This document shows, piece after piece, positions 24,061 to 63,983 of a DNA stretch of 64,000 nt. Every line of letters begins with the position of its first letter. Positions within the stretch are counted from its first letter, which is position 1. This DNA comes from Candidatus Firestonebacteria bacterium RIFOXYD2_FULL_39_29. Lineage in GTDB: Bacteria > Oederibacteriota > D2-FULL-39-29. Below the pieces are notes generated by a model. The model saw only the letters and a program-made list of their open reading frames with translations. It ran no database searches and was not told the DNA's origin. Where the stretch lies: NCBI GenBank assembly GCA_001778375.1, contig MFGV01000018.1, positions 47,022 through 111,021 on the forward strand. The letters are read 5' to 3'. The translations under genes were made by a program, and so were the position numbers.

Positions 24061-27000
24061 AAGAAACAGGGGCTGAAGCAGCCGTAGCCTGCGTAACATC
24101 ATAATAAGCATCCCTCAAGTAAATATCAGCATCCACAATTGCTTTAAAAGAATTCGGCGAAGCCGCACCGGCATTTGTGGTAAGTTCAGCAACTACAAAA
24201 TACACTGCGCTTGTTCCTTTCTGTATCGTTGCTTCACTTCCGTCAGGAAGAGGCACATTCATTGTCAAAACTCCGCTTCCGTCAAGGGATATGGAACTGT
24301 TCTGAACCGCGGCAAGAACATCCGTATCAAAAGCGGGTTCATAACTTCCGGCAACGCCCGTATTCGCGTTGTCCCTGAATATACTGACGCTCTCAAACAA
24401 CCCCTGCGCCCCGGCAGTAGAAAGGAGAGTTCCGCCTCCATCCGTGAATTTAACATTTACCGATGTCAGTTCTATATTATTCCCCCACGCAGGGCTGGTA
24501 CTCGTCACCGTAATTTTAAGGAGCGCGATCTTTTCGCTGTTATTCGCACTTCCGTTAACGGGAGCGGTATCAGAAACAACTCCGGTGGGTATTGAAGCAT
24601 CATAGGTTATGGCGCTGTTTACAACCTGAGCCGGCGCGCCGTCAGCCGTATCGCTATTGAGTATTAACTTATACGTCGCACCGTCAACTATCTTATTTCC
24701 TTCTATATCGGTGATTACCGCGCCGGAAACTGTCACTGTTTGCGGAGCTGTTACCGCAGTATTAAAACCAAGATCAGAAAGCCTGAACACATGAGGAGAT
24801 TTAGTATCCGTATTTCCGCCGGTCTTGACAAACCATAAAGTATCATTAACCCCGTCGGAAGAATTCTCGCCCAGAGTGATACTTATTTTAAAATTCCTTG
24901 AAATATTTATGGTTGGAGAGCCAAAAGTATTCGCCAAAACCTGAGTTCCCGCACTATTTCGCCGCCCTTCTGTCGGTGTCGCGAAACTTCCAAAGTCACT
25001 GTTATCAACATTTGTATCAACCCCGTTTCTGCCCAGAGTATTCGGAGCAGAAAGACCGCCCGCAGCAGAATTCGCATATAGAACCAGTGTTCCTGTATAA
25101 TCATAATAGACAGAAGGCGTTCCGGACTGCCAGGTCGCCCTGTCTTCCACCTGGCCCGAAGCATTTTCGAGAGCAACAAAATCCGCCGATGAGGTAAGGC
25201 CGTTCGTTGTTCCAAAGGAGTTCTCATATGTAAAGCTGTTTGCCCCGGTATCCGTACTGCTGTTATCCACCGCGGCAAAAGAACCCGCGTCTATATTTCT
25301 GGTAAAAGTAAAATGTTTCCTGTAGGGATTATTTCCGGAAACGGACTGAGAACCTCTTAATATGTATCCGGCAAGCGTCACCGCCGTGCCTCCTGTATTA
25401 TTTAACTCAATAAATTCATCCGCAAGCTGATGATATGAGATCTCATTTATTTTCACGGTACCGGTGACCGCATTAAGCGCGTTTTGAGTCGGCGTCGGAT
25501 CTTTCTCAAGATAATTACTGCCGTCAGAGATTCTTGCAAAAGAAATATCTGATGCGCCTGCAGTAAAGGCGGGCCACTGCACTACATCAATCTGAGTATT
25601 TGAATTATCTTTAAGTTTCACGTATCTAATATTATTCCCGTCCAAATTCGACGAAACGCCGAGTGTAAGTACACTGCCGTTTGTGACGGTAACTCCGGCA
25701 CTTCCTGTCCACACCGCTACATCCGTTCCGGGGCTTGCTATAGTTCCGCTGTTATAAACCAGAGTCCAGCCGCTCAAACCGACATCACTGCCGGTGTCAT
25801 TATAAAGTTCAACCCAGTCCGCGCCTGCTGAAGCTCCGAGCGAATAAACCTCATTAATATGTATATTACCCGTCTGCGGCAAGCAGGACGGATTGTTTGA
25901 AAGAGCAGAATAATTATTGGCCTTATCTTTTGTTTTAATTGCAAAATAATAGGTTACTCCGGGTGTTAAACCCGACAGATATCTTGTCTCCTCTGCGGCG
26001 GCTGTTACCGGCACCCAGGTATTCGGGTAATCTGTTGCATTTTCAAAATCAGTATCATTGGCAATCGGACTTGTCGAATATCTCACTATATACGACCCTG
26101 CTGTATTGTCCGCAGAAACCCCGTTATCTCCGGGAGCAGTCCAGGTAAGTTTTACCTGTCCCCGGGACACTCCCGGCACCGCGGTAAGATTTGTCGTATT
26201 TGAAGGAGCCACCGTGTCTTTTCTTATATAGAAAGCATCCGTAGTCAAAGTGGTCAAGCCCGCATTGTCATACCCTCTTGCCGATACGTAGTTTGTTCCT
26301 TCTGCCAGAGCCGACCAGGCAACAGTCCAGTTTGTCGTGTAAGTCGAGGCATTTATTGACGAAGCAATATTTGTCCAGGCCACAAGATTTGTCCCTGTCA
26401 TTCCGGTGGCAGAATAAACCGTATACTGAACATTATTAAGCAGAGAGGTTGCATCCGAAAAATCAACATTATAGGAGGTACCTGCAGCGTTTCGCCAGGC
26501 TGTATCACCGGACTGATTATTGGTAATCACCGGAGCCACGGTATCTTTTTTTACATAAAACTTATCGGCTTCAATAACGTTATTGCCCGCACCGTCTACT
26601 ATTTTAACGGAAATATTATTTACACCCTCCTGTAAAGCCGTCCAGACTGCGGAAGGAAGAGCCCAATCGGTTGTATAACTGTTATTATTTATTCCGGATA
26701 CCGCATTTGTCCAGTCAGAAAGAAGCGAACCTGTCATGCCGGTTCCTGAATACACTTTCACCTGGTTGTAAGCTAAAAGCGAACCACCTGCATCCGAGAA
26801 ATCCACATTATAGGTGCCATTATTTGAAGTTCTCCACGTATCATCCCCTGCCTGATTATCGGTCATACCCGGCGGATTCGTATCATGCATATCCAGACAC
26901 ATATTCGCGCATCTGTATAAAGAATCTGAAGCTCCGGCATTATGTACAGTCCCGCCGGTCCAGGCAGAGCCCGTCCAATTCCTGGAAGCAATGGTTGCTG

Positions 27001-30000
27001 ATTCATCTATACCAACAGCCGTCATCTTGTTCTGATTCGGATCCGGCTCAAGCTGAACCCAGCGTATATGGTTAGACCAGTCATAAGTATCTTTCGGTGC
27101 CGCAGCCGGAGTAGCAGACCAGCCGCCCGCAGAAGTCCACGTAATATAACTAAGTTTTGTTGAAGTAAAATCCACGGCAACCGCAACTGCTTTGCCGCTG
27201 CTTTTTTCAAAAGCAACATCAGCTCTAAATCCGTCAGACGGTTCCATCGTAGTATCCGCCGCAGGAAGCGCGCCCCACGCAGCGCCGGTCCAGACGCAGA
27301 CATCCCATCTTGAAGAACCCGAGAGTGAAGCAAAAGCAATATTGTTTGAGGACGACGCCGTATCAGAAGCAATTCTTATCCAGTTAGCCGTCGACGCAAT
27401 GTTAGGCCCAGTTCCCTGAGACGCAAGCCATATCGAACCGTTCCACTGATCATACGTTGTTCCTGTACCGGCACCCCAGATTACCATACATTTACCCGAG
27501 GTATTTTCCCAGGCAATATCAAAGCATTGTTTACTGTTAACCGCGGCCGCAGTCGAAAGGGTTTTACCGTTACCCCATACAGAACCGCTCCATCTTAAAG
27601 CATAAATATCGGAATTAGCATCCAGAGTCGCAAGCATTATTTCCGCAGTTCCGCTTCTTTGTTTCAATCTCACCCAGTAAACTATACCTGTAGTCCCGGC
27701 ATCATACGTAGTTTCATTCGTCCAGGAGGTACCGTCCCAAATCCTGTAAGCTATCTCATTTGAAGCCGCACCGGTAGAGTAAACCACCATACATCTTCCC
27801 GTTGTCTGTTCATACGCAATATCAAAACCTCTATAAATGCTGTTATTTGAGCCGATGCCCGAGACATTCCATTGAGTCTGCCAGGAGTTTGTCAAACCGT
27901 CATATTTTAAGACAGACATAGTGCCGCCGCTGGAAAGAACCCCTGCCATTTTCTCATTCCTGAAAACAGGGCAGGGTTTTGTAATCACCCATCTTATGGT
28001 AGCCGTAGCCGCCGTAGCAGTCTGCTCGCTGCCCCATGCCGACCCGCTCCAGAGTTCATACTTTGGATTTGTTAAACTTCCCGAGCCGTAAATGATAACC
28101 CCTGCCGCCGCACCGGGAGCTCCGGAAACCGCTGAAGGGGAATTGCCGTAGGTTCCTGTATTTGGGACTTCATCATAAGCTCTTATTGCAAAATAATACG
28201 TAGTACTCGGAGTTAAACCCGAAACCGTCCTGTTTTCTGTAACCCCGGCATTAACCGGTGTCCAGGATTGACTATAGGTAGTCGCCGCATTCCAGGTTGC
28301 CAGATTCGTCACAGGAGTGGGTGCATATTTAACAGTGTACCCTCCGTTCGGCGGAGCCTGCAAGTTAATGCCTGTCCCATTGTCCCCGGGCGCAGTCCAG
28401 GAAAGATTTACCTCTCCCGCATAATCTCCGGTAACCGCAGACAGGCTTGTTATCTCTGACGGCGCAGTAACATCAGCACCGGTAGTTCCCGAATTACCCG
28501 TAAGATTTGAAACACCTCCCAAACTTCCCGCTTTATCAACCGGTTTTATAGCAACGTAATACAAAGAGTTTGCATTAAGTCCCGTTATACTCCTCGTTTC
28601 CGTACTTCCTCCCGCAACAAAACTTGCCCAGGAGTGAGTATAAGTAGAAGCCGCATTAAAGTCCACATCAGTCCCCGAAAAGTTCCCCTGCGCGGAGGTT
28701 TTATATTTTACCGAATAATTGCTGACAGTTCCCGAAGCAGCATCATCCCCCGGAGCTTTCCAGGAGAGATTTAAAATACCTTCCGCTCCCGTAGAAACCG
28801 AAAGATTAGTGATAGCCGACGGCGCTGTTGTGTCCTTGTTTATATAGAAGACATCATTTTGCGATACGGCATTTGTCAGATTATCGTAAGCTCTGACAGA
28901 AACATAATTAACACCCTCCTGCAGTGCCGCAAAATCCACCGTAAAGTTAGTCGTGTAAGTAGCGGCATTCAGTCCGGTTGCGATATCCGTCCAGTCCTTT
29001 CTGATGCTTCCCGTCTGCCCCGTCGCAGTTGTTACTTTATACTGCACATTGTTCAGAAGAGAACCGTTGTCGGTGAAATCTACATCATAAAGTGTCCCGG
29101 CCGCATTCCTCCAGGCCGTATCCCCTGTCTGGTTATTGGTAATTGTCGGTCCCTGGGTATCTTTTTTTACATAGAACACGTCGTTTTGCTGTTTCGTATT
29201 TCCGGAGTTATCGTAAACCCGGACCGAGACATAATTCGTACCTTCGGACAAAGCGGTGAAATCCACAGTCCAGTTTGTCGCATAAGACCCGGCATTTATT
29301 CCCGAGGCAATATTCGTCCAGGCTTTAATAGTCGAACCGGTAAGGCCGGTTCCGGAATATACGGTATACTGCGCGTAAGAGAGCTGTGAACCGCCGGCAT
29401 CAGTGAAATCAACATCGTATACGGTTCCCGCAGCACTCCGCCAGGTATTATCACCGGCCTGATTATTGGTAACTACCGGTAAAGTAGAGTCTTTCCTTAC
29501 ATAAAACACATCGTCAGAAGTAATAACTCCGCCTGCATTATCATAAGCTCTGACGGAAACGTAATTACTCCCGTCAGCAAGCACGTTATAATCAACACTC
29601 CAGTCTGTCGCATACGAAGAAGCATTTATTCCGGTCGCAATATTGGTCCAGTCCTTTATAAGGGTGCCTGTTTTTCCTGTCGCCGAGTACACCGCATACT
29701 GCGCATACGAAAGGTTGGAGTTCCCCGTATCAGAGAAATCTACATTATACACAGTCCCGGCAGTATTTCTCCAGGTATTATCACCTGTCTGATTATTGGT
29801 AAAAGAAGGCGCTAGCGCATCTTTCTTGACATAGAAAGCATCCGTAAGAACAGTTGAAGAAGTCTGATTATCGGAGATCCGTACAGAGACATAATTTGTC
29901 CCGTTTTGAAGGGCAGCAAAATCCACCTGCCAGTCGGTCGTATATGTCGAAGCGTTTATTCCGGAAGCAATCGCTGTCCAATTTTTAAGCTGACTGCCTG

Positions 30001-45000: not shown

Positions 45001-48000
45001 CCGAAATATAATTCACGCCAATCTGGCAGGCGGAAAAATCTATCGTAAAATCCGTAGTATAGGTGGAGGCGCTAACCGTGTTTGCAATATTTGTCCAGTT
45101 CTTAAGCTGCGAACCGGTAAGACCTGTTCCGGAGTAAACCGCATACTGAATATTATTGAGTAAAGAGGCCGTGTCCGAAAAATCCACATTATAGGTTGTC
45201 CCGGAAGAAGCTCTCCAGGTATCGTCCCCCGTCTGGTTATTGGTAACTAAAGGAGGAACCGTATCTTTCTTCACATAAAACACATCATTCTGGGAGGCGG
45301 TATTTCCCGCGTTATCATAAACACGGACGGAGACATAATTGATTCCCTGCTGGCAGGTACCGAAGTCAATGATCCAATCCGGGTTATAGTCAGTGGAATT
45401 AATAGAAGATGAGAAAGTAGTCCAGGGCTTAATCTGGGTTCCGGTCTGCCCCGTTGCAGAATATATCGTATACTGAACATACGAGAGCTGCGAAACTGCG
45501 TCGGAGAAATCCGTATTATAAACGGTACCCGCGGTGGTCCGCCAGGTATCATCTCCCGTTTGATTGTTAGTGATCCCCGGAGCCACGCTATCTTTCTTTA
45601 CATAAAATACATCATTTTGAGAAACGGTATTTCCCGCATTATCATAAGCGCTTACCGAGACGTAATTCGCTCCCTGCTGTAACGAAGCAAAATCCAGTTG
45701 CCAGTCGGTTGTATATGCTGAGGCATTTATTCCCGTTGCAATATCTGTCCAATCTTTAAGCACGGTACCTGTCTGGCCCGTAGCCGCACACACTTTATAC
45801 CGGACGTTACTTAAGAGCGCGCCACCGGTTTCAGAAAAATCAACATTGTAAACAGCACCTGCCGCAGCTCTCCAGGTATCATCCCCCGTCTGATTATTCG
45901 TAACACCCGGCGCAGATGCATCTTTCTTTATATAAAACACATCATTTTGAGAAACGGTGTTGCCCGCGTTATCATAAACTCTCGCGGACACATAATTCGT
46001 TCCCGCGACAAGAGATGCAAAATCCACCTGCCAGTCCGTCGTATAAGTAGTAGCATTTATTCCGGTTGCAATATTTGTCCAGTCCTTTAAAACCGTCCCG
46101 GTTTGTCCTGCCGCAGAACACACCTTGTACTGAACGTTGTTAAGAAGAGAGGTTGCATCCGAGAAGTCCACATTGTAAACCGTACCGGCCTCCGATCTCC
46201 AGGTATCATCGCCCAGCTGGCTTACCGTTATCGCCGGATTAGCTATATCTTTTTTCACATAGAATACGTCATTTTGCACCGCATTATTGCCTACGGTATC
46301 ATAGGCTCTTACAGAAACATAGTTCGTCCCTTCCTGTAAAGAAGAATAGTCCACCTGCCAGTTGGCTGAATAAGAAGAAGAGTTGATCCCCGTCGCAATA
46401 TTAGTCCAGTCCTTAAACTGCGAGCCGGTCCGGCCTGTAGCGCTATAGACAGTGTATTGAACATTATTTAAAAGCGAACTTGCGTCGGTAAAATCCACAT
46501 CGTAGGAAGTTCCAGCCGAGGTACGCCAGGTATTATCACCTGTTTGGTTATTTGTAAAACCGGGAGCAGTTGTATCTTTCTTTACATAGAAGACATCGGT
46601 TTGCGAAACGGTATTTCCTGAATTATCATATGCTCGGACCGAAACATAATTCGTCCCCTGCTGTAAAGATGCGTAATCCACCTGCCAGTCTATGGTGTAA
46701 GTAGCGGCATTTATTCCCGCTGCTATATCTGTCCAATCTTTCAGAACTGTTCCCGTCTGACCTGTTGCGGCGCACACCCTGTACTGGACATTATTAAGAA
46801 GCGAGGTCGCATCAGAAAAATCAACATTATATGTCGTCCCGGAAGCTGCACGCCATGTATCATCCCCGGTCTGGTTGTTTGTTATTCCCGGATTTACACT
46901 GTCTTTCTTAACATAGAACACGTCATTTTGAGAGAAAGTATTTCCCGCATTATCATAAGCCCTGACCGAAACATAATTTGCTCCCGCTTGTAAAGAGGCA
47001 TAATCCACCTGCCAGTCAGTTGTATAAGTAGTCGCGTTTATTCCCGTTGCAATATTAGTCCAATCCTTAAGAACTGTTCCGGTCTGACCTGTTGCTGAAC
47101 ATACTTTGTACTGAACGTTACTAAGAAGCGAGGTCGCATCAGAGAAATCTACATTATATGTTGTCCCTGAGGCGGCTCTCCAGGTATCATCGCCTGTCTG
47201 ATTATTTGTTACTCCGGGATTACCCGTATCCTTCTTCACATAGAACACATCATTTTGAGATACGGTATTTCCCGCATTATCATAAGCCCTGACCGAAACA
47301 TAATTACTCCCCTGCTGTAAAGACGCGTATGCTACCTGCCAGTCAGTTGTGTAAGACGCCGCATTTATATTTGTTGCTATTGTCGTCCAGGTGACCAGCT
47401 GCGAACCGGTCAACCCCGTTGCGGAATAAACAGCGTACTGCGCATAATTTAAATTCGCTCCGCCTGCATCAGTAAAGTCCACATTATATGTTGTTCCCGA
47501 GGCAGCTCTCCAGGTATTATCCCCCGTTTGATTGTTCGTTACTCCGGGATTACTTGTATCTTTCTTTACGTAGAAAACATCGTTTTGTGCCAGCGTGTTT
47601 CCCGTATTATCATAGGCTCTTACCGAAACATAATTCGTCCCCTGTTGTAAAGACGCATAGTCCACTTGCCAGTCGGCAGTATATGTGGCAGCATTAATAT
47701 TGGTCGCTATAGTTGTCCAGGTAACCAGCTGCGAACCGGTCTGGCCCGTAGCAGAATACACGGTATACTGAACATAATTTAATAGCGAGGTCGCGTCGGA
47801 GAAGTCCACATTGTACGTCGTCCCCGCTGCGGCCCTCCAAGTATCATCTCCGGTCTGGTTGTTTGTTATCCCGGGATTCCCTGTATCTTTCTTCACATAG
47901 AACACATCATTTTGAGAAAAAGTATTTCCCGAATTATCGTACGCTCTTACCGAAACATAATTCGTCCCCTGCTGTAAAGACGCGTACGCTACCTGCCAAT

Positions 48001-55498: not shown

Positions 55499-55560
55499 CC
55501 GCCCAGGCGGATCTTGCAAAGGGTTTATGGTCAGATATTTATACCTTTGCTCAACTCCCC
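55499..55560 (+). repeat. 60-bp repeat element, copy F (between rSAM gene and V4R-like gene)
   Basis: CCGCCCAGGCGGATCTTGCAAAGGGTTTATGGTCAGATATTTATACCTTTGCTCAACTCCCC. Confidence 0.7.
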
Positions 55561-56579
55561 TTCTTTACCTGCTTTCGCAGGGCTGCCATTTCACATGCGG
55601 ACTTTGATTTCCCGTACAAACTTCCGTTTTCAAGCATAGCCAGACCGGGACACCTGTTACAATAACGGATATCTTTACAAATTACGCATTCTTTCAAGTC
55701 TTTAAGTTTCATGTTCCGTATTTTTTTTAGCACCGCGGAACTTTTCCATATTTCTTTAAAAGTTTTCTTTCTTAGATTTCCGGCAGAAAGCGGAATCTGC
55801 AGACAGGAGAGAACATCGCCGTAAGGATTTATAGCTACAAAGTTTTTACCGGCAGAGCATATAACATTTTTCTCAAGATATTTACTTGAATAGCGCCAAA
55901 CTGCGCAATGCTGCCTTACTACTTTTTGCAAAACATCATTTCCAATTTTTCCCCGGGTGTTTTCTGTACTTCCGTCATTTTTTGGCGCTATAACAGGGTC
56001 AAAAAGCATTTTAAAACCATTCTTTTTGGCAAATGCAGTTATTGCTTTTTTCTCCGGGTAATTAGACATCATAAGAGGAGTTTTAATCCTGGCACATATC
56101 CCGGCCTTTTTAATTTCTTTCAGCGCTTTCATAGTTTTATAAAACGAACCTTTAACGCCGGTAATTTCGTCGTGTACTTTTGCTTTTAAAGAGTAAAGAC
56201 TGGCACTTATCTCATTAATATTCAACAATTTAAGTTTTTTAATTCTTGAAGGAGTTAAGAGAGTGGCATTAGTCAGAATAGTCACCGCAAATCTTTTTTC
56301 CACGGCATATTCAAGTATTTCAAACACATCTTTTCTCAAAAATATCTCCCCGCCCGTAAATGCCAGGAAAAGACATCCCTCTTCCGCCAGTTGATCAAGA
56401 ACCTTTTTCACCTCACCAGTTGTCAGTTCCCTTTCTCCACTTTCCCCACTTTTTTCACTCTGCCCTCCGGGCAGATAACAATGCGAGCATTTCAAATTAC
56501 ACCTATAAGTTAATTCAATCATAGACCAGGCTGGAATATTATTTTCTTCGGTTATTATGGCAAGTTCAGCTTCTAGCAT
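55551..56579 (-). CDS. Radical SAM / SPASM-domain peptide-modifying enzyme
   Basis: CxxxCxxC cluster (ELTYRCNLKCSHCY), a glycine-rich SAM motif (LAFTGGEIFL), and a C-terminal Cys-rich SPASM region (C..C...C.CxxC: SCLQ...CVICKDIRYCNRCPGLA). Confidence 0.75.
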   Translation of the reverse strand: MLEAELAIITEENNIPAWSMIELTYRCNLKCSHCYLPGGQSEKSGESGERELTTGEVKKVLDQLAEEGCLFLAFTGGEIFLRKDVFEILEYAVEKRFAVTILTNATLLTPSRIKKLKLLNINEISASLYSLKAKVHDEITGVKGSFYKTMKALKEIKKAGICARIKTPLMMSNYPEKKAITAFAKKNGFKMLFDPVIAPKNDGSTENTRGKIGNDVLQKVVRQHCAVWRYSSKYLEKNVICSAGKNFVAINPYGDVLSCLQIPLSAGNLRKKTFKEIWKSSAVLKKIRNMKLKDLKECVICKDIRYCNRCPGLAMLENGSLYGKSKSACEMAALRKQVKKGS

Positions 56580-56833
56580 TTTTGAATTATTTTCCCGGCA
56601 AGAAGCTCCCTAATAAAAGCAACAACATCTTTTTCTGCCCTGACCTCGGAGATATCGTATTCCGACGCAAGTTTCTTTACCATACTGTTTTCAGCGGTAT
56701 TCTTTACTAACAATTTGAAAAGAAAAGTTCCGGTTGAATTTAATTTTACCAATTTCATCTTTTCCGGCTGAACGATATAATAACTGTTCTTGATCAACCG
56801 TGCCGCCACACCGCTTTTTATTTTATACGCCAT
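56573..56833 (-). CDS. PqqD-family peptide chaperone (RRE-type) protein
   Basis: 86 aa. The pattern (YYIVQPEKMKLVKLNSTGTFLFKLLVKNTAENSMVKKLASEYDISEVRAEKDVVAFIRELLAGKII) fits PqqD/RRE (L-x-L-N-x-[ST]-[GA]...[IL]-W...[DE]-[IV]...F-[IL]-x-x-L...G-[IL]-I). It overlaps the rSAM gene start by 7 nt. Confidence 0.5.
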   Translation of the reverse strand: MAYKIKSGVAARLIKNSYYIVQPEKMKLVKLNSTGTFLFKLLVKNTAENSMVKKLASEYDISEVRAEKDVVAFIRELLAGKIIQKC

Positions 56834-57516
56834 AAAACTCTCCAGAACCCCGTTTTTTTGAACTCCAATATGTTTTTTTCCACCGAGCTGATGAAATCAT
56901 AGCTCAACCCGGCTATCTTTTTCTCCGGCTTAAAGAGTATAACATTTCTTAAGAGCTTTGCCCACGCCCTCTCCGTTGCAATTGGTTTTAAAGCATTTTC
57001 CCGAGCTTGTTTTAGAAATAAAAGCTTTGGACTGCCAGCACTTTTATTCGTTCCCCCGCCTTTCATCAGTCCCATAAACGGAGTTCCATAAAGCTTCCAG
57101 CTTTTCCCCACCTTTCTTACTGCAACTATCTCATCACTTAAGACAACTCCGCATTTTCTACTGGCTTCCGCCACCGTAGTTTTACCCGCTCCGCTTATCC
57201 CCGTGAATATGTACCCCTTCCCCCGTGAAATAACCCCGGAAGCATGCAAGAAAAACCCGTTATGTTTCAGTAGTAAAGAAGAGTAAGTAAGCCGGAGAAA
57301 CGTGTCAAACGCATACTTATTGGGAAGTCCTTTGTAAACAAGAGTTATTTTAGCCGGAGTATTTTTAAGTGAAAACTCTTTATACCTTTTCTTTAGGATT
57401 TTGAAAAACGCTGTCTGATATTTTTCAGCTAGAGCGATACTACTGCCAACCCCGGCAATACACAAGTACAGCATTCTTTCACGTTTAATACCATTTTCCT
57501 TCATAATTATTTTCAT
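56818..57516 (-). CDS. HPr-kinase-related (HprK C-terminal domain-like) P-loop protein
   Basis: FFLHASGVISRGKGYIFTGISGAGKTTVAEASRKCGVVLSDEIVAV matches the HprK C-domain P-loop (LHA..V...G.G.L[IF]TG.SG.GKS..A..L...G..L.SD[DE]). This family recurs next to PqqD/radical-SAM genes in RiPP-like cassettes. Confidence 0.6.
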   Translation of the reverse strand: MKIIMKENGIKRERMLYLCIAGVGSSIALAEKYQTAFFKILKKRYKEFSLKNTPAKITLVYKGLPNKYAFDTFLRLTYSSLLLKHNGFFLHASGVISRGKGYIFTGISGAGKTTVAEASRKCGVVLSDEIVAVRKVGKSWKLYGTPFMGLMKGGGTNKSAGSPKLLFLKQARENALKPIATERAWAKLLRNVILFKPEKKIAGLSYDFISSVEKNILEFKKTGFWRVLWRIK

Positions 57517-58424
57517 AATTTTAGTGCTTTACCCAGTTTGGCAAGGGCCTTTTTATGTTTCACCTTATCCATCTTATTAATATTTTCAAGTTTCCACTTT
57601 ACCCCCGGAAGCTCTTCTACTCCATCAACATCCAGTAATTCCCACACCGGAGCGCCGCTTTTAAATGATATTAAAAACTCTTTCTCCTTTGATGTAAGTT
57701 TTTCATTAATTTCTTTAACTATTATTTTCCTGTACTCAACAAGTTCAGAATATTTAACATCCGGCACCATACCGGAAAATTCATTATCAAATACGAGTTG
57801 CATGTCGCTCAGATTTGGCGCCAATAGTTCCGCCATAGGGCGATTATGACTAATTAGATACACAATAAACGCCTTGCGCACTTGTTCGGTAATCCCTTCG
57901 TTTTTCAGGAGAAGCATTGCATCGAATATGTCGCGTGGATGCTGCCTGTCAAGCGCGGCACATAATTTCGAGCCAAATGTCTCAGCAAATGATAATACCT
58001 TAACAGATGTAAATCTTCCAAAAACTTCTACGGCTTTATCACACAAGGGCCTTTCTTCGCATTTATATATTGCCCCACGTATAGTTGTACTTGTTTCTAT
58101 TTTTATTTCCACATCATCTTCTTTTATATATAGTTTTGTAATAAGATTACCGCCAACTTTGTATTCTTTAATATTAACTGTTTTAATATTGTTTTTAATC
58201 CGGCGAGAAATATCAAGGAAACTATCATTAATGGCTGTTAGTGTTTCATTCCTTGGATAAATTTTGGTATATGTTAAATCTATGTCTACTGAATACCGGG
58301 GCATGTTTCTATAGAAGAAGTTTATCGCCGTTCCTCCACGCAATGCGAATTCTGTATCAAGAAATATATGTGGAAGGATTTTCATAAGCAGTTCGACTTG
58401 CCTATGGTAAATATTAGTAGTCAT
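57513..58424 (-). CDS. Nucleotidyltransferase, AbiEii/AbiGii-toxin family (DUF1814-like)
   Basis: N-terminal hallmark FALRGGTAINFFYRNMPRYSVDIDLTYT is the minimal NTase G-x-x-hh motif plus the D-I-D catalytic pair typical of AbiEii. It overlaps the HprK-like gene by 4 nt. Confidence 0.6.
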   Translation of the reverse strand: MTTNIYHRQVELLMKILPHIFLDTEFALRGGTAINFFYRNMPRYSVDIDLTYTKIYPRNETLTAINDSFLDISRRIKNNIKTVNIKEYKVGGNLITKLYIKEDDVEIKIETSTTIRGAIYKCEERPLCDKAVEVFGRFTSVKVLSFAETFGSKLCAALDRQHPRDIFDAMLLLKNEGITEQVRKAFIVYLISHNRPMAELLAPNLSDMQLVFDNEFSGMVPDVKYSELVEYRKIIVKEINEKLTSKEKEFLISFKSGAPVWELLDVDGVEELPGVKWKLENINKMDKVKHKKALAKLGKALKL

Positions 58425-59235
58425 GGTCTTGCTCCCCTTCAGGAACCACTATTTTATATTTTGAATTATAATGCCCCTTATCTGCAAGCTTTCTTTTACC
58501 GGAGCCAAAAGTTACCCTGCTGAGGTCTAAATACTTTACACAAGGAAGATTATGTTTCTCCGCCAAATACATAAACAAGCGTTTTGCTTTGACTGAAGTA
58601 CATCTTTCTAAAAGTGTTTGGACTAAGTTAGGCCGTAAGTCAAATAAACCGGATATTATGTGGTCCATCTCTCCAAAACTGCCGTTATATTGATAATCAT
58701 AGCAATACTCTAAAGCAGCTCTTTCCCTGGAAGAGATATTTAATTCATAATTTCCAAAATTATGTTTTACAAACCCTATATCATCGCAATTTTGAAGAAA
58801 ATTTGTCATAGTATATTTATACTTCTGATTCCAGTTATAGGTTTTAAACCACTTAGGTAATTTCCGGTGAGCAGGCCCAAATAATTTGACTTCCACAACA
58901 CTTGGATCATTTGGTATGTATTGAGCGGCGCCTTTCATTGCTAAAGCAGTTTTGCCTCCGGGATGAACGAGCAGTTTCAAATAGGTTTGAAGAGCATAAA
59001 CACCACCGCTCCAATCAACCCTATCTCCGGTTTTTATAAACGCACCAGGCCCTAGCCGTTTTAACCAGTTGCTTCTAACATAGGCATTTGCCAAAGAAGG
59101 ATATACACCTGCACTTTCAAGTGAGCATGACAGGGATACAGTATTACTCGGCCATGACTGGAGCAACTGGTTTATTATTGTTCCATTATTAGTATTCATA
59201 CTATGCATATTAGCACTATAATAAACTTTTGTCAA
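58414..59235 (-). CDS. Hypothetical protein, possible AbiEi-like antitoxin/regulator partner
   Basis: 273 aa, encoded immediately upstream of and overlapping (11 nt) the AbiEii-like gene, which is the canonical AbiEi-AbiEii order. The N-terminal region (SLANAYVRSNWLKRLGPGAFIKTGDRVDWSGGVYAL) is weakly AbiEi-like. Confidence 0.3.
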   Translation of the reverse strand: MTKVYYSANMHSMNTNNGTIINQLLQSWPSNTVSLSCSLESAGVYPSLANAYVRSNWLKRLGPGAFIKTGDRVDWSGGVYALQTYLKLLVHPGGKTALAMKGAAQYIPNDPSVVEVKLFGPAHRKLPKWFKTYNWNQKYKYTMTNFLQNCDDIGFVKHNFGNYELNISSRERAALEYCYDYQYNGSFGEMDHIISGLFDLRPNLVQTLLERCTSVKAKRLFMYLAEKHNLPCVKYLDLSRVTFGSGKRKLADKGHYNSKYKIVVPEGEQDHDY

Positions 59236-59348: not shown

Positions 59349-61367
59349 TTACAGCCGCACCGGCATCATGATCATGGGGATTCCCATGTAGTAGAATTTC
59401 CGTTGTATTGCAAACACCGTATAATTGTGGAGCCATCTCGCCATAAATACTTCCTCGGGAAATACCAGCTGGCCTCCGAAGAAAATAGCACCGGGATATT
59501 TTCTAAGTATCTCAGGAGCCGCTCCGGAAACTTCGCTTACGGGGTCAACGCCGGTTAAAGCAACGCCTTCCGCGAATGAACCGGTTGAGCGGATATAATT
59601 AACATATTTATTTACATCCTCTTTTACTTTAATTTTAAGTTTATCAATCTCCTCTACTCCCTTAAATGCGCCGCTATCAACTATACCGACCTGAATAATA
59701 ACGAAATTCTTATACAACCCTTTGAAGATCCGTGAAATATTTAATAATGTGTGCAGGCCTAACCCGTTAAAACCATTCACTAATACTACAGCCGTCTTTC
59801 CGTTTTTAATATATTTCGGAGTGCTTGCCGTTGCTGCAGGTTCAGAACTGTCAACCGTGGGCATTACGGAAAGCACCAGGCTATCCAGGCGGTTCAATAT
59901 ATTTTTCGTATTATTGTAATGCTTTCTTATGAGCAGGGCGATTATCATAAAGCCGGCTGTTATTGTTAAAGTTATCCAGCCTCCCTCATAAAATTTTACG
60001 GTTATGACCGTGACAAGAATTGAAAAAGTAAGGACGAGACCTATACCGTTCAAAGCAAATTTCCTCTTCCACTTTTTTTCAGTTTTTCGTTCTTTCCACC
60101 AGTGCCTGACCATTCCAAGCTGTGAAAGCACAAATGTGATAAAGACATTAATGCTATAAAGAACAACAAGGAGTGTCACAGAACCCTGACTGAAATATAA
60201 GACAAGCAAAGAAGCACCACCCATCAGTAAAATCCCATTTTGTGTAACTAAGCGATCGGAGAGCATTGTAAACCGGGAAGGGAGCCACCTGTCCACAGCC
60301 ATATTCGCAATGACTCTCGGACCGTCTATGAAACCCGCCTGTGCGGCAACAAAAAGTATAGCTGCTTCCGATATGAGAGTGATCAGGAGCAATGTGTACC
60401 CCAGCGTCCCTGTCCCGAATATTTTTCCGAAAAGCACGGCGTTTAATGTCTTATTCGGTTCAGGAGTTACATTATACAGAAGATAAGCCACCAGAAGGCC
60501 GGTAACTACAAGAGCAAGAGAAATTGCCATATAAAGCATGGCTCTTTTTGCCGTTTTTACTTTCGGTTCACGAAGAATTGAAACCCCGTTGCTGACCGCT
60601 TCAATACCCGTATACGTTCCGGCACCCATACTATAGGCCCGAAGCAGGATAACACTGAGGCCAAAGAAACCGAGCTGGCCAAACGAAGTTTTAATATCAG
60701 CTCCCGTATTCACGGCTACTGAAGCAAGGTTTGAGCTGTGAGAGAAAATAGCATAAACTATAACAACAGCATGGGTGATAACAAAAACAAGAAATATCGG
60801 TAAAAGGATAAGTATTGATTCTTTCACTCCACGCAAATTCATAACGGTAATCAATACTATTAAAAAAGCGGCGAACCCCAATTTTAAATATTGCCACTCA
60901 GCAGGAAGAAAACTAAAAATAGCGTCTGCCCCGCTCGCTATCGATATAGTAATGGTCAGAACATAATCGATTATCAGAGCAGAACCTGCAGCCATACCGG
61001 CAAAAGGTGACAAAAGTTTTGAAGCTACTACATATCCCCCGCCGCCTGACGGAAAGAGTTCTACTATCTGCGAATAACTGGCGCTGATTATAGCGATCGT
61101 GATAGCCGAAGCAAGTCCGATAATTACAGCCAGATATACGTGCCCCTGCAAGGCCTTAAAAGCTTCTTCCGGACCATAACAGGCGGAGGAAAGCCCGTCC
61201 GCACCGAGTCCCACCCACGCAAAAAAAGCAATCAGGGCAAGATTATGAAATACGCCCTTTTCTTCGGGGTTCTTAGCTTTACCTATAATAATATTTTTAG
61301 CTTTTCGGAACAACCCGTGATTTTCCGTATCTCTTATGTCATCAAACACTTTTTTCGACATTGTCAT
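59349..61367 (-). CDS. APC-superfamily permease with cytoplasmic C-terminal domain, KimA-like (K+ or amino-acid transporter)
   Basis: 672 aa, with ~12 TM helices followed by a ~170-aa soluble domain. The N-terminus (NLALIAFFAWVGLGADGLSSACYGPEEAF) is typical of the APC/KimA family. RBS AAAGGAAG precedes the start. It is preceded by a structured leader with terminator. Confidence 0.55.
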   Translation of the reverse strand: MTMSKKVFDDIRDTENHGLFRKAKNIIIGKAKNPEEKGVFHNLALIAFFAWVGLGADGLSSACYGPEEAFKALQGHVYLAVIIGLASAITIAIISASYSQIVELFPSGGGGYVVASKLLSPFAGMAAGSALIIDYVLTITISIASGADAIFSFLPAEWQYLKLGFAAFLIVLITVMNLRGVKESILILLPIFLVFVITHAVVIVYAIFSHSSNLASVAVNTGADIKTSFGQLGFFGLSVILLRAYSMGAGTYTGIEAVSNGVSILREPKVKTAKRAMLYMAISLALVVTGLLVAYLLYNVTPEPNKTLNAVLFGKIFGTGTLGYTLLLITLISEAAILFVAAQAGFIDGPRVIANMAVDRWLPSRFTMLSDRLVTQNGILLMGGASLLVLYFSQGSVTLLVVLYSINVFITFVLSQLGMVRHWWKERKTEKKWKRKFALNGIGLVLTFSILVTVITVKFYEGGWITLTITAGFMIIALLIRKHYNNTKNILNRLDSLVLSVMPTVDSSEPAATASTPKYIKNGKTAVVLVNGFNGLGLHTLLNISRIFKGLYKNFVIIQVGIVDSGAFKGVEEIDKLKIKVKEDVNKYVNYIRSTGSFAEGVALTGVDPVSEVSGAAPEILRKYPGAIFFGGQLVFPEEVFMARWLHNYTVFAIQRKFYYMGIPMIMMPVRL

Positions 61368-61386
61368 CTTCCTTTGAGACTTTTTA

Positions 61387-61415
61387 CAAAAAAAAATGTC
61401 AGGGAGAACTCGCCG
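61387..61415 (-). terminator. Rho-independent terminator (riboswitch expression platform) upstream of the KimA-like gene
   Basis: On the minus strand: GTCAGGGA-CGGCGAGTTC-TCCCTGAC followed by TTTTTTTTT. The permease RBS/ATG follows ~20 nt downstream. Confidence 0.6.
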
Positions 61416-61419
61416 TCCC

Positions 61420-61567
61420 TGACGTTGTTCTTCCTCTTTTCATGAGCTTACGAGGTTAGCTGTCGGGCTCGGGCTTGCGCCCTAGAAAACTTTCCATTCG
61501 CCCCAATCCCGTTTCCGGGAACTTCCTGGTTTCCCCGCTTCTGCGCTACATCCGCAGCATTAAGCAT
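61420..61567 (-). ncRNA. Candidate cyclic-di-AMP (ydaO/kimA-type) riboswitch in the 5' leader of the KimA-like transporter
   Basis: Minus-strand RNA ...GCGCAGAAGCGGGGAAACCAGGAAG...CCGGAAACGGGAUUGGGGCGAAUGG...GGGCGCAAGCCCGAGCCCGAC... contains counterparts of ydaO-class blocks (ACGGGGA-RCC, GGGGUGAAUCC-like, ACGCAAAGCCCGGG-like). It is bracketed by a sigma70-like promoter and an intrinsic terminator directly before a KimA-like gene. Confidence 0.4.
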
Positions 61568-61574
61568 GTACTTA

Positions 61575-61603
61575 AATTTAACACCATTGCAAATATTTGT
61601 CAA
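61575..61603 (-). promoter_or_regulatory. Sigma70-like promoter for the riboswitch/transporter transcript
   Basis: Minus strand: TTGACA-aatatttgcaatggtgt-TAAATT (17-bp spacer). Confidence 0.45.
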
Positions 61604-61643
61604 TATGGATTATGGGGTTTGGAATAATGCTTTCTAAGGGGTT

Positions 61644-62555
61644 TTAAAATTTTAACAACAAAGAAAGCTGGTGTGTGTTTCCCAGATCATTGAAAGGAAC
61701 AAAAGCATAGTCGAGCAGGAAACTTTTCCATCCGATACCGAGGCCGGTTGTAAGTCCCGCCAGGGTTCCGAGATCCTTTGCTGTGTCGGTCCTGAAGCCT
61801 GCTTTCGGGCTTATACTGAATTCCCCGAAGACACAGGTATATTCGGCACCAAAGTGCAGATTAGCGGTTGTCTCGACCGGGAAATTAATATCCGCGCCCA
61901 ATAACAAGGCCTTGTCGAAAAGTTTACAACCCAGTCCGATACCGATATTGAACGGCAGATTATCCGCTTCATTTACAAAACTTATCTTCGGCCCCAAATT
62001 TTGCACACAGGCTCCGGCTGTCAGTTCTTCCGTTATTTTATATTTAATACCCGTATCTCCGGCAAAACCAAGAGCATATTTGTTGTCAATGTTCTGGCTT
62101 ATCAACTTCACGCCCCCGCCTATGGATAATTTTTCGTCAAGCCGGAAAGCATAAGCAACGTCAACAACCAGGTCATAAGCGCCAAACAAACCTTCGTAGG
62201 AGGATGTATCGGCACTTCTTCTTTCCAGATCGTTCAAATATAGATAAAGCACATATCCGCCTAAATAATTATTTTTATCCAGGGGCTGGGCATAGCTCAA
62301 CACTTCGTACCTGATATTTTGCAGCCATTCGCTATGCATCGCCATAACCTGGGTTTGCTTAATTTCCACCAAACCCGACGGGTTCCAGTAAAGGGAGTTC
62401 ACGTCATCTGCAAGACCGACAAACACCTCTCCCATACCGATAGGCCGCGCTCCGATCCCAAGCTTAAGGAAAGCCGCTCCGGTCGTCCCGGTCTCCGCAC
62501 CGACCCAGGCCGCGCACAAACAAACCGCGAGTATGTATGCCGCTATTTTCTTCAT
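61644..62555 (-). CDS. PorV/FadL-like outer-membrane beta-barrel protein
   Basis: Signal peptide, then AFLKLGIGARPIGMGEVFVGLADDVNSLYWNPSGL, the same signature as in ORF 18738..20450. It ends in an aromatic residue (F), as outer-membrane barrels typically do. Confidence 0.5.
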   Translation of the reverse strand: MKKIAAYILAVCLCAAWVGAETGTTGAAFLKLGIGARPIGMGEVFVGLADDVNSLYWNPSGLVEIKQTQVMAMHSEWLQNIRYEVLSYAQPLDKNNYLGGYVLYLYLNDLERRSADTSSYEGLFGAYDLVVDVAYAFRLDEKLSIGGGVKLISQNIDNKYALGFAGDTGIKYKITEELTAGACVQNLGPKISFVNEADNLPFNIGIGLGCKLFDKALLLGADINFPVETTANLHFGAEYTCVFGEFSISPKAGFRTDTAKDLGTLAGLTTGLGIGWKSFLLDYAFVPFNDLGNTHQLSLLLKF

Positions 62556-62702
62556 ATCATTCCTTTAAGTCTCCGAATGCCGTTAAACGTTTCACGTTGT
62601 CATGTTACTCACGTTCTATACCAATGTGTTATTATTTATTTTTTTCCTTTCTCCACTTAACTTTCTGTTTTTGCTGTTCTTCCTGTCCTTGCTTTGTTTG
62701 CT

Positions 62703-63983
62703 TCACTTAATGACTGCCATTTTCTTTGTTACCTTCTTTGTCTCTCCTGTTACCTTATCTTTTGCGGTTATTTGATAAATATAGACGCCGCTGGCAATTT
62801 TCTCATTCAGGTTGTTTGTACAGTTCCAGTCATACCTATACACCGGAGATCCTGTCTTATCAATCTCACTGTCTGTGATCGTTCTTATGAGTTCCGCAGC
62901 CAGGTTAAATACCTTTATTTCTGCTTCCATATTTGCATAACCGGAGGTGAACTTAAATGTTGTGACACCGCCGCTTATCGGATTCGGGAAGTTGTAAACC
63001 ATTTCTTCCTGTAACGCCTCTACGGCAAGGTTTATTGTCACCTTTTCCCCTTTATGCACCGTCAGCTGCTTATTTGAAACTTCAATATCCCCGTAAAAAC
63101 CTTTTACGGCATAATTTCCGGAGAGCAAATTGGGTATTTTGAAATTACCGTTTGCATCCGGCTCTATTCTTATCATTTTCCTGCTCCCCTGCCACAATTC
63201 CACCGCCAGTGCCTGACCGCTGATACTCATGGCTTTACCCGGAGCCTTTGCCAGAGCATATTTTTTGGCAAACTGAAGCGGCACTACACCCGAGATCTCA
63301 CCCAGGGAATAGGTGACGGCTATTTGAAAATCCATGTTATTTATTGTTTCTGTTGTCGGCTGGAAGGCGCTGCTTATATAACCTTCCAGGGTCTGAGCCG
63401 AAGCCAAAATTGAATATTCTCCCGCCGTTATCGCGGAAATACGGTACTTTCCGTCTACATCGGTTGTTCCCGAAGCAAGTAGCACCTCGTTTAGTTTCAA
63501 TTCAACACTTACCGCGGCGATCGGCAGATTGTCCGGTGTTGTGACTTTTCCGGCTATCAAATTCATTACCGTGAACTTAGAAGGACTTGTTGCCGTACCG
63601 ACACCGGTTGTTATTTTAATATCATAAATTCCGGCGGGCAGACCCAAAGGAACCACGGCACCGCTTATTACCGTATTTGAAATACCGGCTCCGCTGTAGT
63701 CCATGTTTGTATCGGAAGGCATAGTCGCTATTTTTATTGACTGCACATTAGAAGAACTCCCGCCTCCAAAATACCCTGTTCCGGAAATTGTAATTGTAGT
63801 TGTATAAATATTGTAACCAAGCAGAGGTTCTATCACGGAAATAACCGGAATGGGAGGATTTACGGTAATCACAGGGCTTACACTTAAAGTGTAGACCGAA
63901 CCCTGATCCGCAGCGGTTATTGACGCTGTTCCCGCCGTCATAAATGTTACATTAAACGTCTTCGTTCCTGCGGCTAAGAACAA
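62703..63983 (-). CDS. Secreted Ig-like/CarboxypepD_reg-like multidomain protein with T9SS-type C-terminal sorting domain (N-terminus outside window)
   Basis: The ORF runs from 63983 with no start codon, so it is likely partial. Beta-sandwich segments are present (GKVTTPDNLPIAAVSVELKLNEVLLASGTTDVDGKYRI). C-terminal NFPNPI...SGVYIYQITAKDKVTGETKKVTKKMAVIK matches the Por_Secre_tail-like CTD seen in ORF 20537..22786. Confidence 0.5.
   Translation of the reverse strand: MFLAAGTKTFNVTFMTAGTASITAADQGSVYTLSVSPVITVNPPIPVISVIEPLLGYNIYTTTITISGTGYFGGGSSSNVQSIKIATMPSDTNMDYSGAGISNTVISGAVVPLGLPAGIYDIKITTGVGTATSPSKFTVMNLIAGKVTTPDNLPIAAVSVELKLNEVLLASGTTDVDGKYRISAITAGEYSILASAQTLEGYISSAFQPTTETINNMDFQIAVTYSLGEISGVVPLQFAKKYALAKAPGKAMSISGQALAVELWQGSRKMIRIEPDANGNFKIPNLLSGNYAVKGFYGDIEVSNKQLTVHKGEKVTINLAVEALQEEMVYNFPNPISGGVTTFKFTSGYANMEAEIKVFNLAAELIRTITDSEIDKTGSPVYRYDWNCTNNLNEKIASGVYIYQITAKDKVTGETKKVTKKMAVIK

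What the first reader, a model, noticed from the sequence alone, without database searches (positions are those of the whole stretch)
61387..61603. Candidate c-di-AMP (ydaO-class) riboswitch controlling a KimA-like APC transporter
A sigma70-like promoter (TTGACA-17-TAAATT), a ~150-nt GC-rich structured leader and a perfect intrinsic terminator (8-bp stem + U9) lie directly in front of the RBS of a 672-aa APC-family permease with a cytoplasmic C-domain. That is the architecture of Bacillus KimA (formerly YdaO), the namesake target of the c-di-AMP riboswitch. The leader contains sequence blocks resembling ydaO conserved regions (CGGGGAAACC, GGGGCGAAUGG, GCGCAAGCCCGAGCCCG).
Basis: partly seen in the sequence, partly recalled or inferred. 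Interest (0 to 1): 0.5.

Follow-up and report, generated by a model that had tools for sequence, protein, structure and literature searches.

The report
c-di-AMP riboswitch before KimA-like transporter

Summary
Confirmed. On the minus strand, 61576..61429 matches Rfam RF00379 (c-di-AMP riboswitch, ydaO/yuaA class) over the full model at 68.2 bits (gathering score 38, E 1e-13). It is the only Rfam hit above threshold in the 64-kb window. SRP and glycine models do not appear even at E<=10. A TTGACA-17-TAAATT promoter with an extended -10 lies just upstream. An 8-bp hairpin followed by U9 lies 24 nt downstream, then an RBS and a 670/672-aa permease. The closest solved relative of that permease, by sequence and by predicted fold, is B. 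subtilis KimA. All eight K+/H+-site residues of KimA are conserved. The source is Candidatus Firestonebacteria RIFOXYC2_FULL_39_67. An orthologous leader in a related metagenome contig is 80% identical, with structure-preserving changes in P2 and P6. RF00379 also sits directly upstream of this transporter subfamily in at least 22 other loci from several phyla. By precedent (B. subtilis kimA, B. thuringiensis kdp) it is most likely an OFF switch acting by intrinsic termination. One deviation: P7 is capped by a GNRA tetraloop, so the canonical L7-3' tail pseudoknot cannot form, and the antiterminator is not resolved. No diadenylate cyclase gene lies in the window. This is a new member of a known kind and of low interest.

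The parts
61598..61603 (-). -35-like hexamer TTGACA
   Evidence: Promoter scan. Identical in the orthologous leader L135.
61575..61583 (-). Extended -10 element, TGT-TAAATT. The transcription start is inferred at about 61569-61567.
   Evidence: TG before the second hexamer. L135 has TGC-TAAATT. The start position is inferred from spacing only.
61429..61576 (-). c-di-AMP riboswitch aptamer (RF00379). The structured core runs from the P1 5' strand GCUU (61565..61562) to the P1 3' strand AAGC (61449..61446).
   Evidence: cmscan 68.2 bits, E 1.1e-13, model positions 1-134; E 6.7e-16 in the local scan. RNAfold recovers P2, P3 and the P5/P6/P7 junction unaided. Helices covary in 15 homologous leaders.
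61470..61481 (-). P7 hairpin GGGC-GCAA-GCCC. It carries a GNRA tetraloop where the class normally has a loop of about 10 nt that forms the pseudoknot.
   Evidence: 6-nt deletion relative to the model. L135 has GGGC-GAGA-GCCC. The other 14 aligned leaders have a CACUUCCAAG-type loop pairing with the tail.
61427..61435 (-). Purine-rich 3' tail AGGAAGAAC, a candidate antiterminator 5' strand. It can pair with GUUCUCCCU at 61409..61401.
   Evidence: Identical in L135 while the flanking bases differ. It is the MFE structure of the transcript prefix ending at ...UCCCU in both sequences. Duplex energy is -9.9 kcal/mol, reached by 7.5% of shuffled tails. The function is inferred, not shown.
61388..61423 (-). 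Intrinsic terminator: GUCAGGGA / 10-nt loop / UCCCUGAC, then A and U9.
   Evidence: Sequence. Hairpin energy -12.1 kcal/mol. Both arms are identical in L135, followed there by UUUACUUUUUU.
61368..61372 (-). Shine-Dalgarno GGAAG, 6 nt before the ATG at 61361.
   Evidence: Sequence; position worked out.
59349..61367 (-). KimA-family (KUP/APC superfamily) transporter gene. The longest ORF is 672 aa; the likely start is 61361 (670 aa).
   Evidence: ORF list. Pfam AA_permease_2, E 1e-27. KimA 6s3k, E 4e-62. Foldseek top hits 8b70/8b71/6s3k over about 640 columns. 100% identical to P0001 from Candidatus Firestonebacteria RIFOXYC2_FULL_39_67.

Best explanation
The 276-bp intergenic region between a PorV/PorQ-like gene and a KimA-type K+/H+ symporter gene encodes, on the minus strand, a promoter, a c-di-AMP riboswitch aptamer of the ydaO/RF00379 class, and an intrinsic terminator. 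Proposed mechanism: when c-di-AMP is high (K+ replete), the ligand-bound aptamer lets the GUCAGGGA/UCCCUGAC-U9 hairpin form. RNA polymerase then stops 27 nt before the start codon, and the K+ importer is not made. When c-di-AMP is low (K+ limitation), an alternative pairing prevents the terminator and the gene is transcribed. The best candidate for that pairing is the conserved tail AGGAAGAAC with GUUCUCCCU, which overlaps the 3' arm of the terminator. Shown here: the aptamer's family membership, its conservation and covariation, the terminator, and the KimA-like nature of the gene. Inferred: ligand binding, the OFF direction, the identity of the antiterminator, and K+ as the substrate.
For: RF00379 matches over the full model at 68.2 bits against a gathering score of 38. 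It is the only gathering-score hit in 64 kb, and there is no rival family at E<=10. The orthologous leader L135 (protein 72% identical, syntenic) is 80% identical. Its core blocks, promoter and terminator arms are identical, while P2 is entirely replaced by another hairpin, P6 changes compensatorily (GGAA/UUUC to GAGU/ACUC), and L7 stays GNRA. RF00379 lies directly upstream, on the same strand, of homologues of this transporter in 14 of 80 GTDB loci. It is also found in L099, L101, L093, L114, L116, L135 and L138. nhmmer adds L106 and L139, which duplicate L099 and L138, a truncated match in L090, and a 3' half in L144. On the 15-sequence alignment, 93.8% of cells are paired against at most 53% when partners are slid, and 15 pairs change on both sides. 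The terminator is an 8-bp stem plus U9, at -12.1 kcal/mol. KimA homology rests on (E 4e-62; Foldseek E 1.7e-24, 638 columns). The K+/H+ residues D36, Y43, D117, T121, S125, T230, E233 and Y377 (PMC6994465) align to D57, Y64, D134, T138, S142, T253, E256 and Y404, all invariant in 26 family members. One homologue follows a KdpD-like gene. Precedent for an OFF switch by termination: B. subtilis kimA (PMC9960051) and B. thuringiensis kdp (PMC6488665).
Against: The L7-3' tail pseudoknot cannot form, because L7 is the 4-nt loop GCAA. smFRET work calls this pseudoknot the ligand-sensitive regulatory core (PMC11963983). How ligand binding would reach the expression platform is therefore unclear. The first J3/4 base, a conserved G in the model, is A here; L101 has the same change. 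The candidate antiterminator has only weak statistical support: 7.5% of shuffled tails pair as well. In the relatives L138 and L144 the equivalent helix is itself the terminator stem. Complementarity between the terminator 5' arm and the aptamer 3' strand is no better than for shuffled arms. No diadenylate cyclase ORF lies in the window (the query was recalled from memory). Nothing here is experimental.
Confidence: 0.85

Rival explanations
1. The aptamer is a decaying relic. Having lost the pseudoknot, it no longer couples c-di-AMP to expression, and the terminator acts as a constitutive attenuator or as the terminator of the upstream PorV-like gene.
For: L7 is reduced to a tetraloop and a conserved J3/4 G is replaced by A. 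Riboswitch presence is patchy among close relatives: L136, L137, L140 and L143 lack it. No well-supported antiterminator was found.
Against: The aptamer still scores 30 bits above the gathering score. Between the window and L135 the substitutions preserve structure (P2 swapped, P6 compensatory, L7 GNRA to GNRA), while all core blocks, the tail and the terminator arms are identical. That is the signature of purifying selection on a working RNA. A dedicated promoter sits between the upstream gene and the aptamer.
Confidence: 0.07
2. It is a functional variant with different behaviour. Either it is an ON switch, in which the ligand frees the tail and so prevents termination, or it has altered ligand specificity or stoichiometry because the P1-pseudoknot-P7 side of the fold is rebuilt.
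For: The pseudoknot is absent in the window and in L135, and L138 has only a 6-nt L7. P1 can be extended by pairing of the 5' leader (CAU/AUG across a UC bulge), where the pseudoknot would normally stack; this follows from the sequence and is an inference.
Against: All characterised members are OFF switches. Repressing a K+ importer at high c-di-AMP is the established physiology. The pocket-forming blocks match the consensus.
Confidence: 0.06
3. The structured leader belongs to another RNA family (SRP RNA, glycine riboswitch or another), or is just a GC-rich leader.
For: None was found.
Against: A permissive cmscan of 61300..61700 lists only RF00379 with a meaningful score. The other hits are 12-19 bits against gathering scores of 40-75.
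Confidence: 0.01

Closest known systems
B. subtilis kimA (ydaO) leader, the founding c-di-AMP riboswitch (Rfam RF00379)
   Same: Same aptamer family. Same type of downstream gene: a KimA-family K+/H+ symporter with a C-terminal cytosolic domain. Same type of expression platform, an intrinsic terminator.
   Different: The host is an uncultivated Gram-negative-type candidate phylum (Firestonebacteria). The protein is only about 25-30% identical to KimA. P7 is capped by a GNRA tetraloop, so the L7-tail pseudoknot is absent.
B. thuringiensis kdpFABC c-di-AMP riboswitch (PMC6488665)
   Same: A c-di-AMP aptamer followed by a canonical hairpin and U-tract, controlling a K+ uptake system. It was shown experimentally to be a transcriptional OFF switch.
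   Different: It controls a different transporter, a P-type ATPase. The terminator there lies 143 nt before the start codon, against 27 nt here.
Thermoanaerobacter c-di-AMP riboswitch crystal structures (PDB 4QLM/4QLN; sequence quoted in PMC5393176)
   Same: The core blocks CGGGGGA-CC, GGGGCGAAU, CCCGAGCCCGUCAGCUAACCUCG are shared almost base for base.
   Different: The crystallised RNA has the L7 loop UACUCCUUCG pairing with the tail CGAAGGAG, an 8-bp pseudoknot read from the sequence. The window RNA has L7 = GCAA and no complementary partner for its tail in the aptamer: the best tail-aptamer duplex is -6.2 kcal/mol and uses the P3 strand.
RF00379 leaders upstream of the same transporter subfamily in Spirochaetota, Verrucomicrobiota, Planctomycetota, Nitrospirota, Desulfovibrionaceae and Kiritimatiellae (L019-L080 hits)
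   Same: Same gene association and strand, and the same helices with covariation.
   Different: Those leaders keep the canonical pseudoknot (helix 8 is 96.8% paired). Many have long, GC-rich downstream leaders rather than a simple terminator.

Membership tests
c-di-AMP riboswitch (ydaO/yuaA, Rfam RF00379) | Covariance-model score at or above the curated gathering score (38 bits) over the whole model | tested here: met
   68.2 bits, E 1.1e-13, model 1-134 of 134, not truncated.
c-di-AMP riboswitch (ydaO/yuaA, Rfam RF00379) | Helices P1-P7 arranged as two homologous three-helix junctions | tested here: met
   The Rfam alignment places P1-P7. RNAfold alone recovers P2, P3 and the P5/P6/P7 junction. 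The same helices covary in 15 homologous leaders: 93.8% of cells paired, 15 pairs changed on both sides. P4 is weak, at 72% paired.
c-di-AMP riboswitch (ydaO/yuaA, Rfam RF00379) | Conserved core and pocket sequence blocks (CGGGGGA-CC; GGGG-GAAU; UAGGG; CCCGA-CCCG-CAGCUAACC-CG) | tested here: met
   All blocks are present. There is one substitution at a conserved position, the first J3/4 base (G to A), also seen in L101. I could not verify which bases contact the ligand, because the structure papers were not held.
c-di-AMP riboswitch (ydaO/yuaA, Rfam RF00379) | Pseudoknot between the P7 loop (L7) and the 3' tail | tested here: not met
   L7 is GCAA, a 6-nt deletion against the model. L135 has GAGA. 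The pseudoknot is present and covaries in the other aligned leaders. Rfam's model does not score the pseudoknot, so family assignment by covariance model is unaffected. The instance is a structural variant in this respect.
c-di-AMP riboswitch (ydaO/yuaA, Rfam RF00379) | Binds c-di-AMP (two molecules) with high affinity | not testable with these tools
   Needs in-line probing, ITC or a similar assay.
c-di-AMP riboswitch (ydaO/yuaA, Rfam RF00379) | Located in the 5' leader, in sense orientation, of a K+/osmolyte/cell-wall gene, with an expression platform | tested here: met
   The order is promoter, aptamer, terminator, RBS, KimA-like gene, all on the minus strand. The gene classes are as listed in PMC7266159.
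c-di-AMP riboswitch (ydaO/yuaA, Rfam RF00379) | Host organism makes c-di-AMP (has a DAC-domain cyclase) | tested here: inconclusive
   No DAC-like ORF and no DGA...RHR motif in the 64-kb window. The query sequence was recalled from memory, and the rest of the genome was not available.
KimA subfamily of KUP K+/H+ symporters | LeuT-fold transmembrane domain plus a C-terminal cytosolic domain | tested here: met
   phmmer against 6s3k, E 4e-62 over residues 21-496. The AF2 model (pLDDT 74.7) has 8b70, 8b71 and 6s3k as its top Foldseek hits over 629-654 aligned columns.
KimA subfamily of KUP K+/H+ symporters | K+ site and proton-coupling residues D36, Y43, T121, T230, Y377, E233 (plus D117, S125) | tested here: met
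   All eight align to identical residues (counted by hand from the printed alignment). All are invariant in A1. Their roles are taken from PMC6994465.
KimA subfamily of KUP K+/H+ symporters | c-di-AMP pocket in the cytosolic domain (H579-N580-Q581-S582; R337 from the TM8-9 loop) | tested here: inconclusive
   The weak second HMMER stretch aligns KimA LHNQS with LHNYT (H647, N648 and Y649 invariant, T650 nearly invariant). R337 aligns to S364, with R365 next to it. Residue roles are from PMC10284832. That part of the alignment is below significance.
KimA subfamily of KUP K+/H+ symporters | Transports K+ | not testable with these tools
   Needs complementation or uptake assays.

The most novel reading that the evidence does not exclude
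The window, L135 and, in reduced form, L138 and L144 would represent a natural pseudoknot-less subclass of c-di-AMP riboswitches. In it, P7 ends in a GNRA tetraloop and the P1-pseudoknot-P7 side of the fold is rebuilt, for example by a P1 extension with the 5' leader plus tetraloop docking. The purine tail, freed from pseudoknot duty, would serve only in the terminator/antiterminator choice. Ligand sensing would then be transmitted by a route other than the pseudoknot, which current work regards as the regulatory core.
Probability: 0.3. Interest if true: 0.4.

Novelty: new member of a known kind. Interest (0 to 1): 0.2.

Why it matters
The finding mainly confirms known biology. It extends the c-di-AMP/K+ homeostasis link, worked out in Firmicutes, to an uncultivated candidate phylum. 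The same riboswitch-transporter pairing recurs with a widespread KimA-like subfamily in Spirochaetota, Verrucomicrobiota, Planctomycetota, Nitrospirota and others. In practice it supports annotating this 'amino acid transporter' family as a probable c-di-AMP-regulated K+ importer. The missing pseudoknot is a modest lead for RNA structural biologists: natural variants that dispense with the element thought to transmit the signal could help define the minimal functional aptamer.

Tried and rejected
1. Alternative RNA families (SRP, glycine, others). A permissive cmscan of 61300..61700 gave nothing credible besides RF00379.

2. An antiterminator formed by the terminator 5' arm with the aptamer 3' strand CCCGAC. 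The duplex energy is -11.7 (window) and -9.7 (L135) kcal/mol, but shuffled arms do as well or better in 175/300 and 253/300 trials. It was rejected as unsupported.

3. An alternative pseudoknot partner for the tail inside the aptamer. The best tail-aptamer duplexes are only -6.2 to -3.8 kcal/mol and use strands already in P3, P6 or P4. In L135 the tail is complementary to the P2 3' strand, but P2 has an unrelated sequence in the window, so this is not conserved.

4. A search for dacA/cdaA in the window. phmmer with a CdaA sequence recalled from memory, plus a DGA...RHR motif scan over 275 ORFs, found nothing. The genome outside the window could not be reached, and a literature search for Firestonebacteria with c-di-AMP found nothing relevant.

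5. The contig of the paralogue P0014 could not be retrieved. The contig of P0006 has no DNA on file.

6. The primary riboswitch papers (Nelson 2013, Block 2010, and the three 2014 structure papers) are not held. Statements about the 3D arrangement (P1-pseudoknot-P7 stacking) rest on my own recollection and are marked as such.

7. The metagenome scan found no relative closer than 60% identity, so only one close orthologous leader (L135) was available to test covariation in the expression platform.

Full report
**Observation.** The region was read on both strands.
- The promoter scan finds TTGACA (61603..61598), a 17-nt spacer and TAAATT (61580..61575), with TG before the -10.
- Such consensus matches are not significant on their own: 3 were found against 2.0 expected in shuffles.
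- A cmscan of the whole 64-kb window against Rfam 15 gives a single hit above gathering score. It is RF00379, the c-di-AMP riboswitch (ydaO/yuaA leader), at 61576..61429 on the minus strand: 68.2 bits against a gathering score of 38, E 1.1e-13, model positions 1-134 of 134.
- A permissive scan of 61300..61700 at E<=10 lists nothing else of substance. The next hits are 12-19 bits against gathering scores of 40-75, and neither SRP nor glycine appears.
- Twenty-four nucleotides after the aptamer comes GUCAGGGA (61423..61416), a 10-nt loop, UCCCUGAC (61405..61398), then an A and nine U (61396..61388). The hairpin folds at -12.1 kcal/mol.
- The terminator scan missed this hairpin only because its loop limit is 8 nt.

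**Downstream gene.** The ORF 59349..61367 (minus strand) is 672 aa.
- The GGAAG Shine-Dalgarno abuts the first ATG and lies 6 nt from the second ATG at 61361. The public protein is 670 aa, starting MSKK. The likely start is therefore 61361.
- Pfam gives AA_permease_2 at E 1e-27. NCBIfam gives nothing.
- The only solved relative by sequence is B. subtilis KimA (6s3k, 8b70, 8b71), E 4e-62 over residues 21-496.
- An AlphaFold2 model built from 26 family members (pLDDT 74.7) has the three KimA entries as its best Foldseek matches: E 1.7e-24 to 5e-19 over 629-654 aligned columns, which includes the C-terminal alpha/beta domain.
- Eight KimA residues form the K+ site, the gates and the proton-coupling site: D36, Y43, D117, T121, S125, T230, E233 and Y377 (PMC6994465). 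They align to D57, Y64, D134, T138, S142, T253, E256 and Y404 (counted by hand). All eight are invariant among 26 homologues.
- KimA's c-di-AMP loop HNQS (PMC10284832) corresponds to an invariant HNY(T) in a weak, sub-significant stretch of the alignment. Direct protein-level regulation is possible but not shown.

**Source and relatives.** The protein is 100% identical to an entry from Candidatus Firestonebacteria bacterium RIFOXYC2_FULL_39_67.
- The transporter subfamily, at 52-62% identity, occurs in many phyla.
- Rfam scans of 80 GTDB loci found RF00379 directly upstream, on the same strand, in 14: Nitrospirae, Planctomycetales, three Spirochaetota, several Verrucomicrobiota/Opitutaceae, Desulfovibrionaceae, Kiritimatiellae and one of doubtful binning.
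- Seven more were confirmed among metagenome and assembly loci: L099, L101, L093, L114, L116, L135 and L138. nhmmer also matched L106 and L139, which duplicate L099 and L138, and a truncated copy in L090.
- The association is patchy. The other two Firestonebacteria species representatives, L001 and L002, lack it. L002 and L141 carry orthologues (90% and 88.5% identity) of a second paralogue of the source genome, P0014, and have no riboswitch.
- L138 and L140 are syntenic, yet only L138 has the riboswitch.
- One homologue sits right after a KdpD-like gene, which fits a role in K+ biology.

**Structure support.**
- On the 15-sequence alignment A2 I scored P1-P7 plus the L7-tail pseudoknot. 93.8% of cells form standard pairs, against 33-53% when partners are slid. 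Fifteen pairs change on both sides, and 0 of 500 shuffles reach the observed values. The shuffle count overstates significance for related sequences; the slide control is the sounder of the two.
- The closest orthologous leader is L135. Its protein is 72% identical, and the gene is followed by the same ScmC-like/PqqD/radical-SAM-SPASM genes. The leader is 80% identical and scores 58.5 bits.
- Between the window and L135 the promoter hexamers, all core blocks, the tail AGGAAGAAC and both terminator arms are identical.
- The differences preserve structure. P2 is replaced by an unrelated hairpin (CUGCG/CGCAG against GAAGAAGC/GCUUCUUC). P6 changes compensatorily (GGAA/UUUC against GAGU/ACUC). L7 stays GNRA (GCAA against GAGA). 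This pattern indicates selection on a functioning RNA.

**Deviation from the class.**
- In the Rfam consensus the loop of P7 (about 10 nt, e.g. CACUUCCAAG) pairs with the 3' tail (UUGGAAG). The same holds in the crystallised Thermoanaerobacter RNA (sequence in PMC5393176) and in the other 14 aligned leaders.
- That helix covaries in my set, for example CUUCG/CGAAG in L050 and CUUCCUG/CGGGAAG in L037.
- In the window and in L135, L7 is a 4-nt GNRA loop, so this pseudoknot cannot form. L138 has only a 6-nt L7.
- I found no convincing substitute partner for the tail inside the aptamer.
- A recent smFRET study calls the pseudoknot the ligand-sensitive regulatory core (PMC11963983). The route of signal transmission here is therefore open.
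- From the sequence, P1 can be extended by the 5' leader (CAU/AUG across a UC bulge), at the place where I recall the pseudoknot stacking. This point, and any tetraloop docking, is inference only. The structure papers were not available.

**Mechanism.**
- The characterised members upstream of kimA (B. subtilis) and kdpFABC (B. thuringiensis) are OFF switches that promote intrinsic termination when c-di-AMP binds (PMC9960051; PMC6488665). c-di-AMP represses K+ uptake.
- The same layout here makes the same logic the most likely one.
- For the ligand-free alternative, the best candidate is pairing of the conserved tail AGGAAGAAC (61435..61427) with GUUCUCCCU (61409..61401), which overlaps the 3' arm of the terminator.
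- In both the window and L135 this pairing is the minimum-free-energy fold of the nascent transcript ending at ...UCCCU (-11.7 and -11.3 kcal/mol). The terminator overtakes it only once GAC is added.
- Support for this candidate is weak. The -9.9 kcal/mol duplex is matched by 7.5% of shuffled tails. In L138 and L144 the homologous helix AGAGAAC/GUUCUCU is itself the terminator stem.
- A second idea, pairing of the terminator 5' arm with the aptamer strand CCCGAC, is no better than shuffles and was dropped.

**dacA.** A phmmer search with a CdaA sequence recalled from memory, plus a motif scan, found no DAC-domain ORF in the window.

**Verdict.** The element is a standard Rfam-detectable c-di-AMP riboswitch in its classic genetic context. 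It is new only as an instance in an uncultivated phylum, with a small structural variation (GNRA-capped P7, no pseudoknot). Interest is low.

Noticed in passing
window 22895..50938 (-): A single 9,347-aa ORF (28 kb). Pfam on two 3,000-aa pieces shows Ig-like, fn3, lamin-tail and beta-propeller/PQQ-like repeats, so it is presumably a giant surface or adhesin-type protein.
   Followed up: partly
window 57513..59235 (-): An AbiEi antitoxin / AbiEii toxin pair (type IV TA) lies between the KimA-like gene and the ScmC-like/PqqD/radical-SAM cluster. The syntenic contig L135 lacks the pair, so it looks like an insertion.
   Followed up: partly
window 55551..57516 (-): A radical-SAM/SPASM enzyme, a PqqD-like protein and a 232-aa protein whose L135 counterpart has a weak ScmC hit. 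This looks like a RiPP-maturation cluster and is conserved in L135.
   Followed up: no
window 61644..63983 (-): Upstream neighbours are a PorV/PorQ-family outer-membrane protein (NCBIfam PorV_fam, E 2e-51) and a protein with CarboxypepD_reg domains and a sub-threshold Por_Secre_tail match. These are T9SS-like components in a Firestonebacteria genome.
   Followed up: no
window, whole: All but one of the 28 ORFs of 150 aa or more are on the minus strand. The exception, 28859..29389 (+), lies inside the giant ORF.
   Followed up: no
L064:1080-1170 (-): In an Omnitrophota locus a c-di-GMP-I riboswitch (72 bits) lies upstream of the transporter homologue but on the opposite strand, so it presumably serves a divergent gene.
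   Followed up: no
L144:660-1100: Only the 3' half of a c-di-AMP aptamer is detected just upstream of the homologue (nhmmer E 2e-8). A 5'-half-like block, GCGGGGAACCC, lies about 300 nt further upstream. The aptamer may be split by an insertion.
   Followed up: no
L138 versus L140: Two syntenic loci (TPR gene upstream, signal peptidase and BON-domain genes downstream). One has a 300-nt leader with RF00379 and the other a 74-nt gap without it, which suggests recent gain or loss of the riboswitch.
   Followed up: partly
L137:1-1496: A close homologue (about 67-68% identity) lies 4 nt downstream of a KdpD/Usp/GAF sensor-kinase gene and has no riboswitch. This is an independent link of the transporter family to K+ sensing.
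   Followed up: no
L043, L046, L060: Homologues at 54-56% identity are assigned to Methanosarcina/Methanosarcinales MAGs, so the subfamily also occurs in archaea or was transferred there. No riboswitch lies upstream of them.
   Followed up: no
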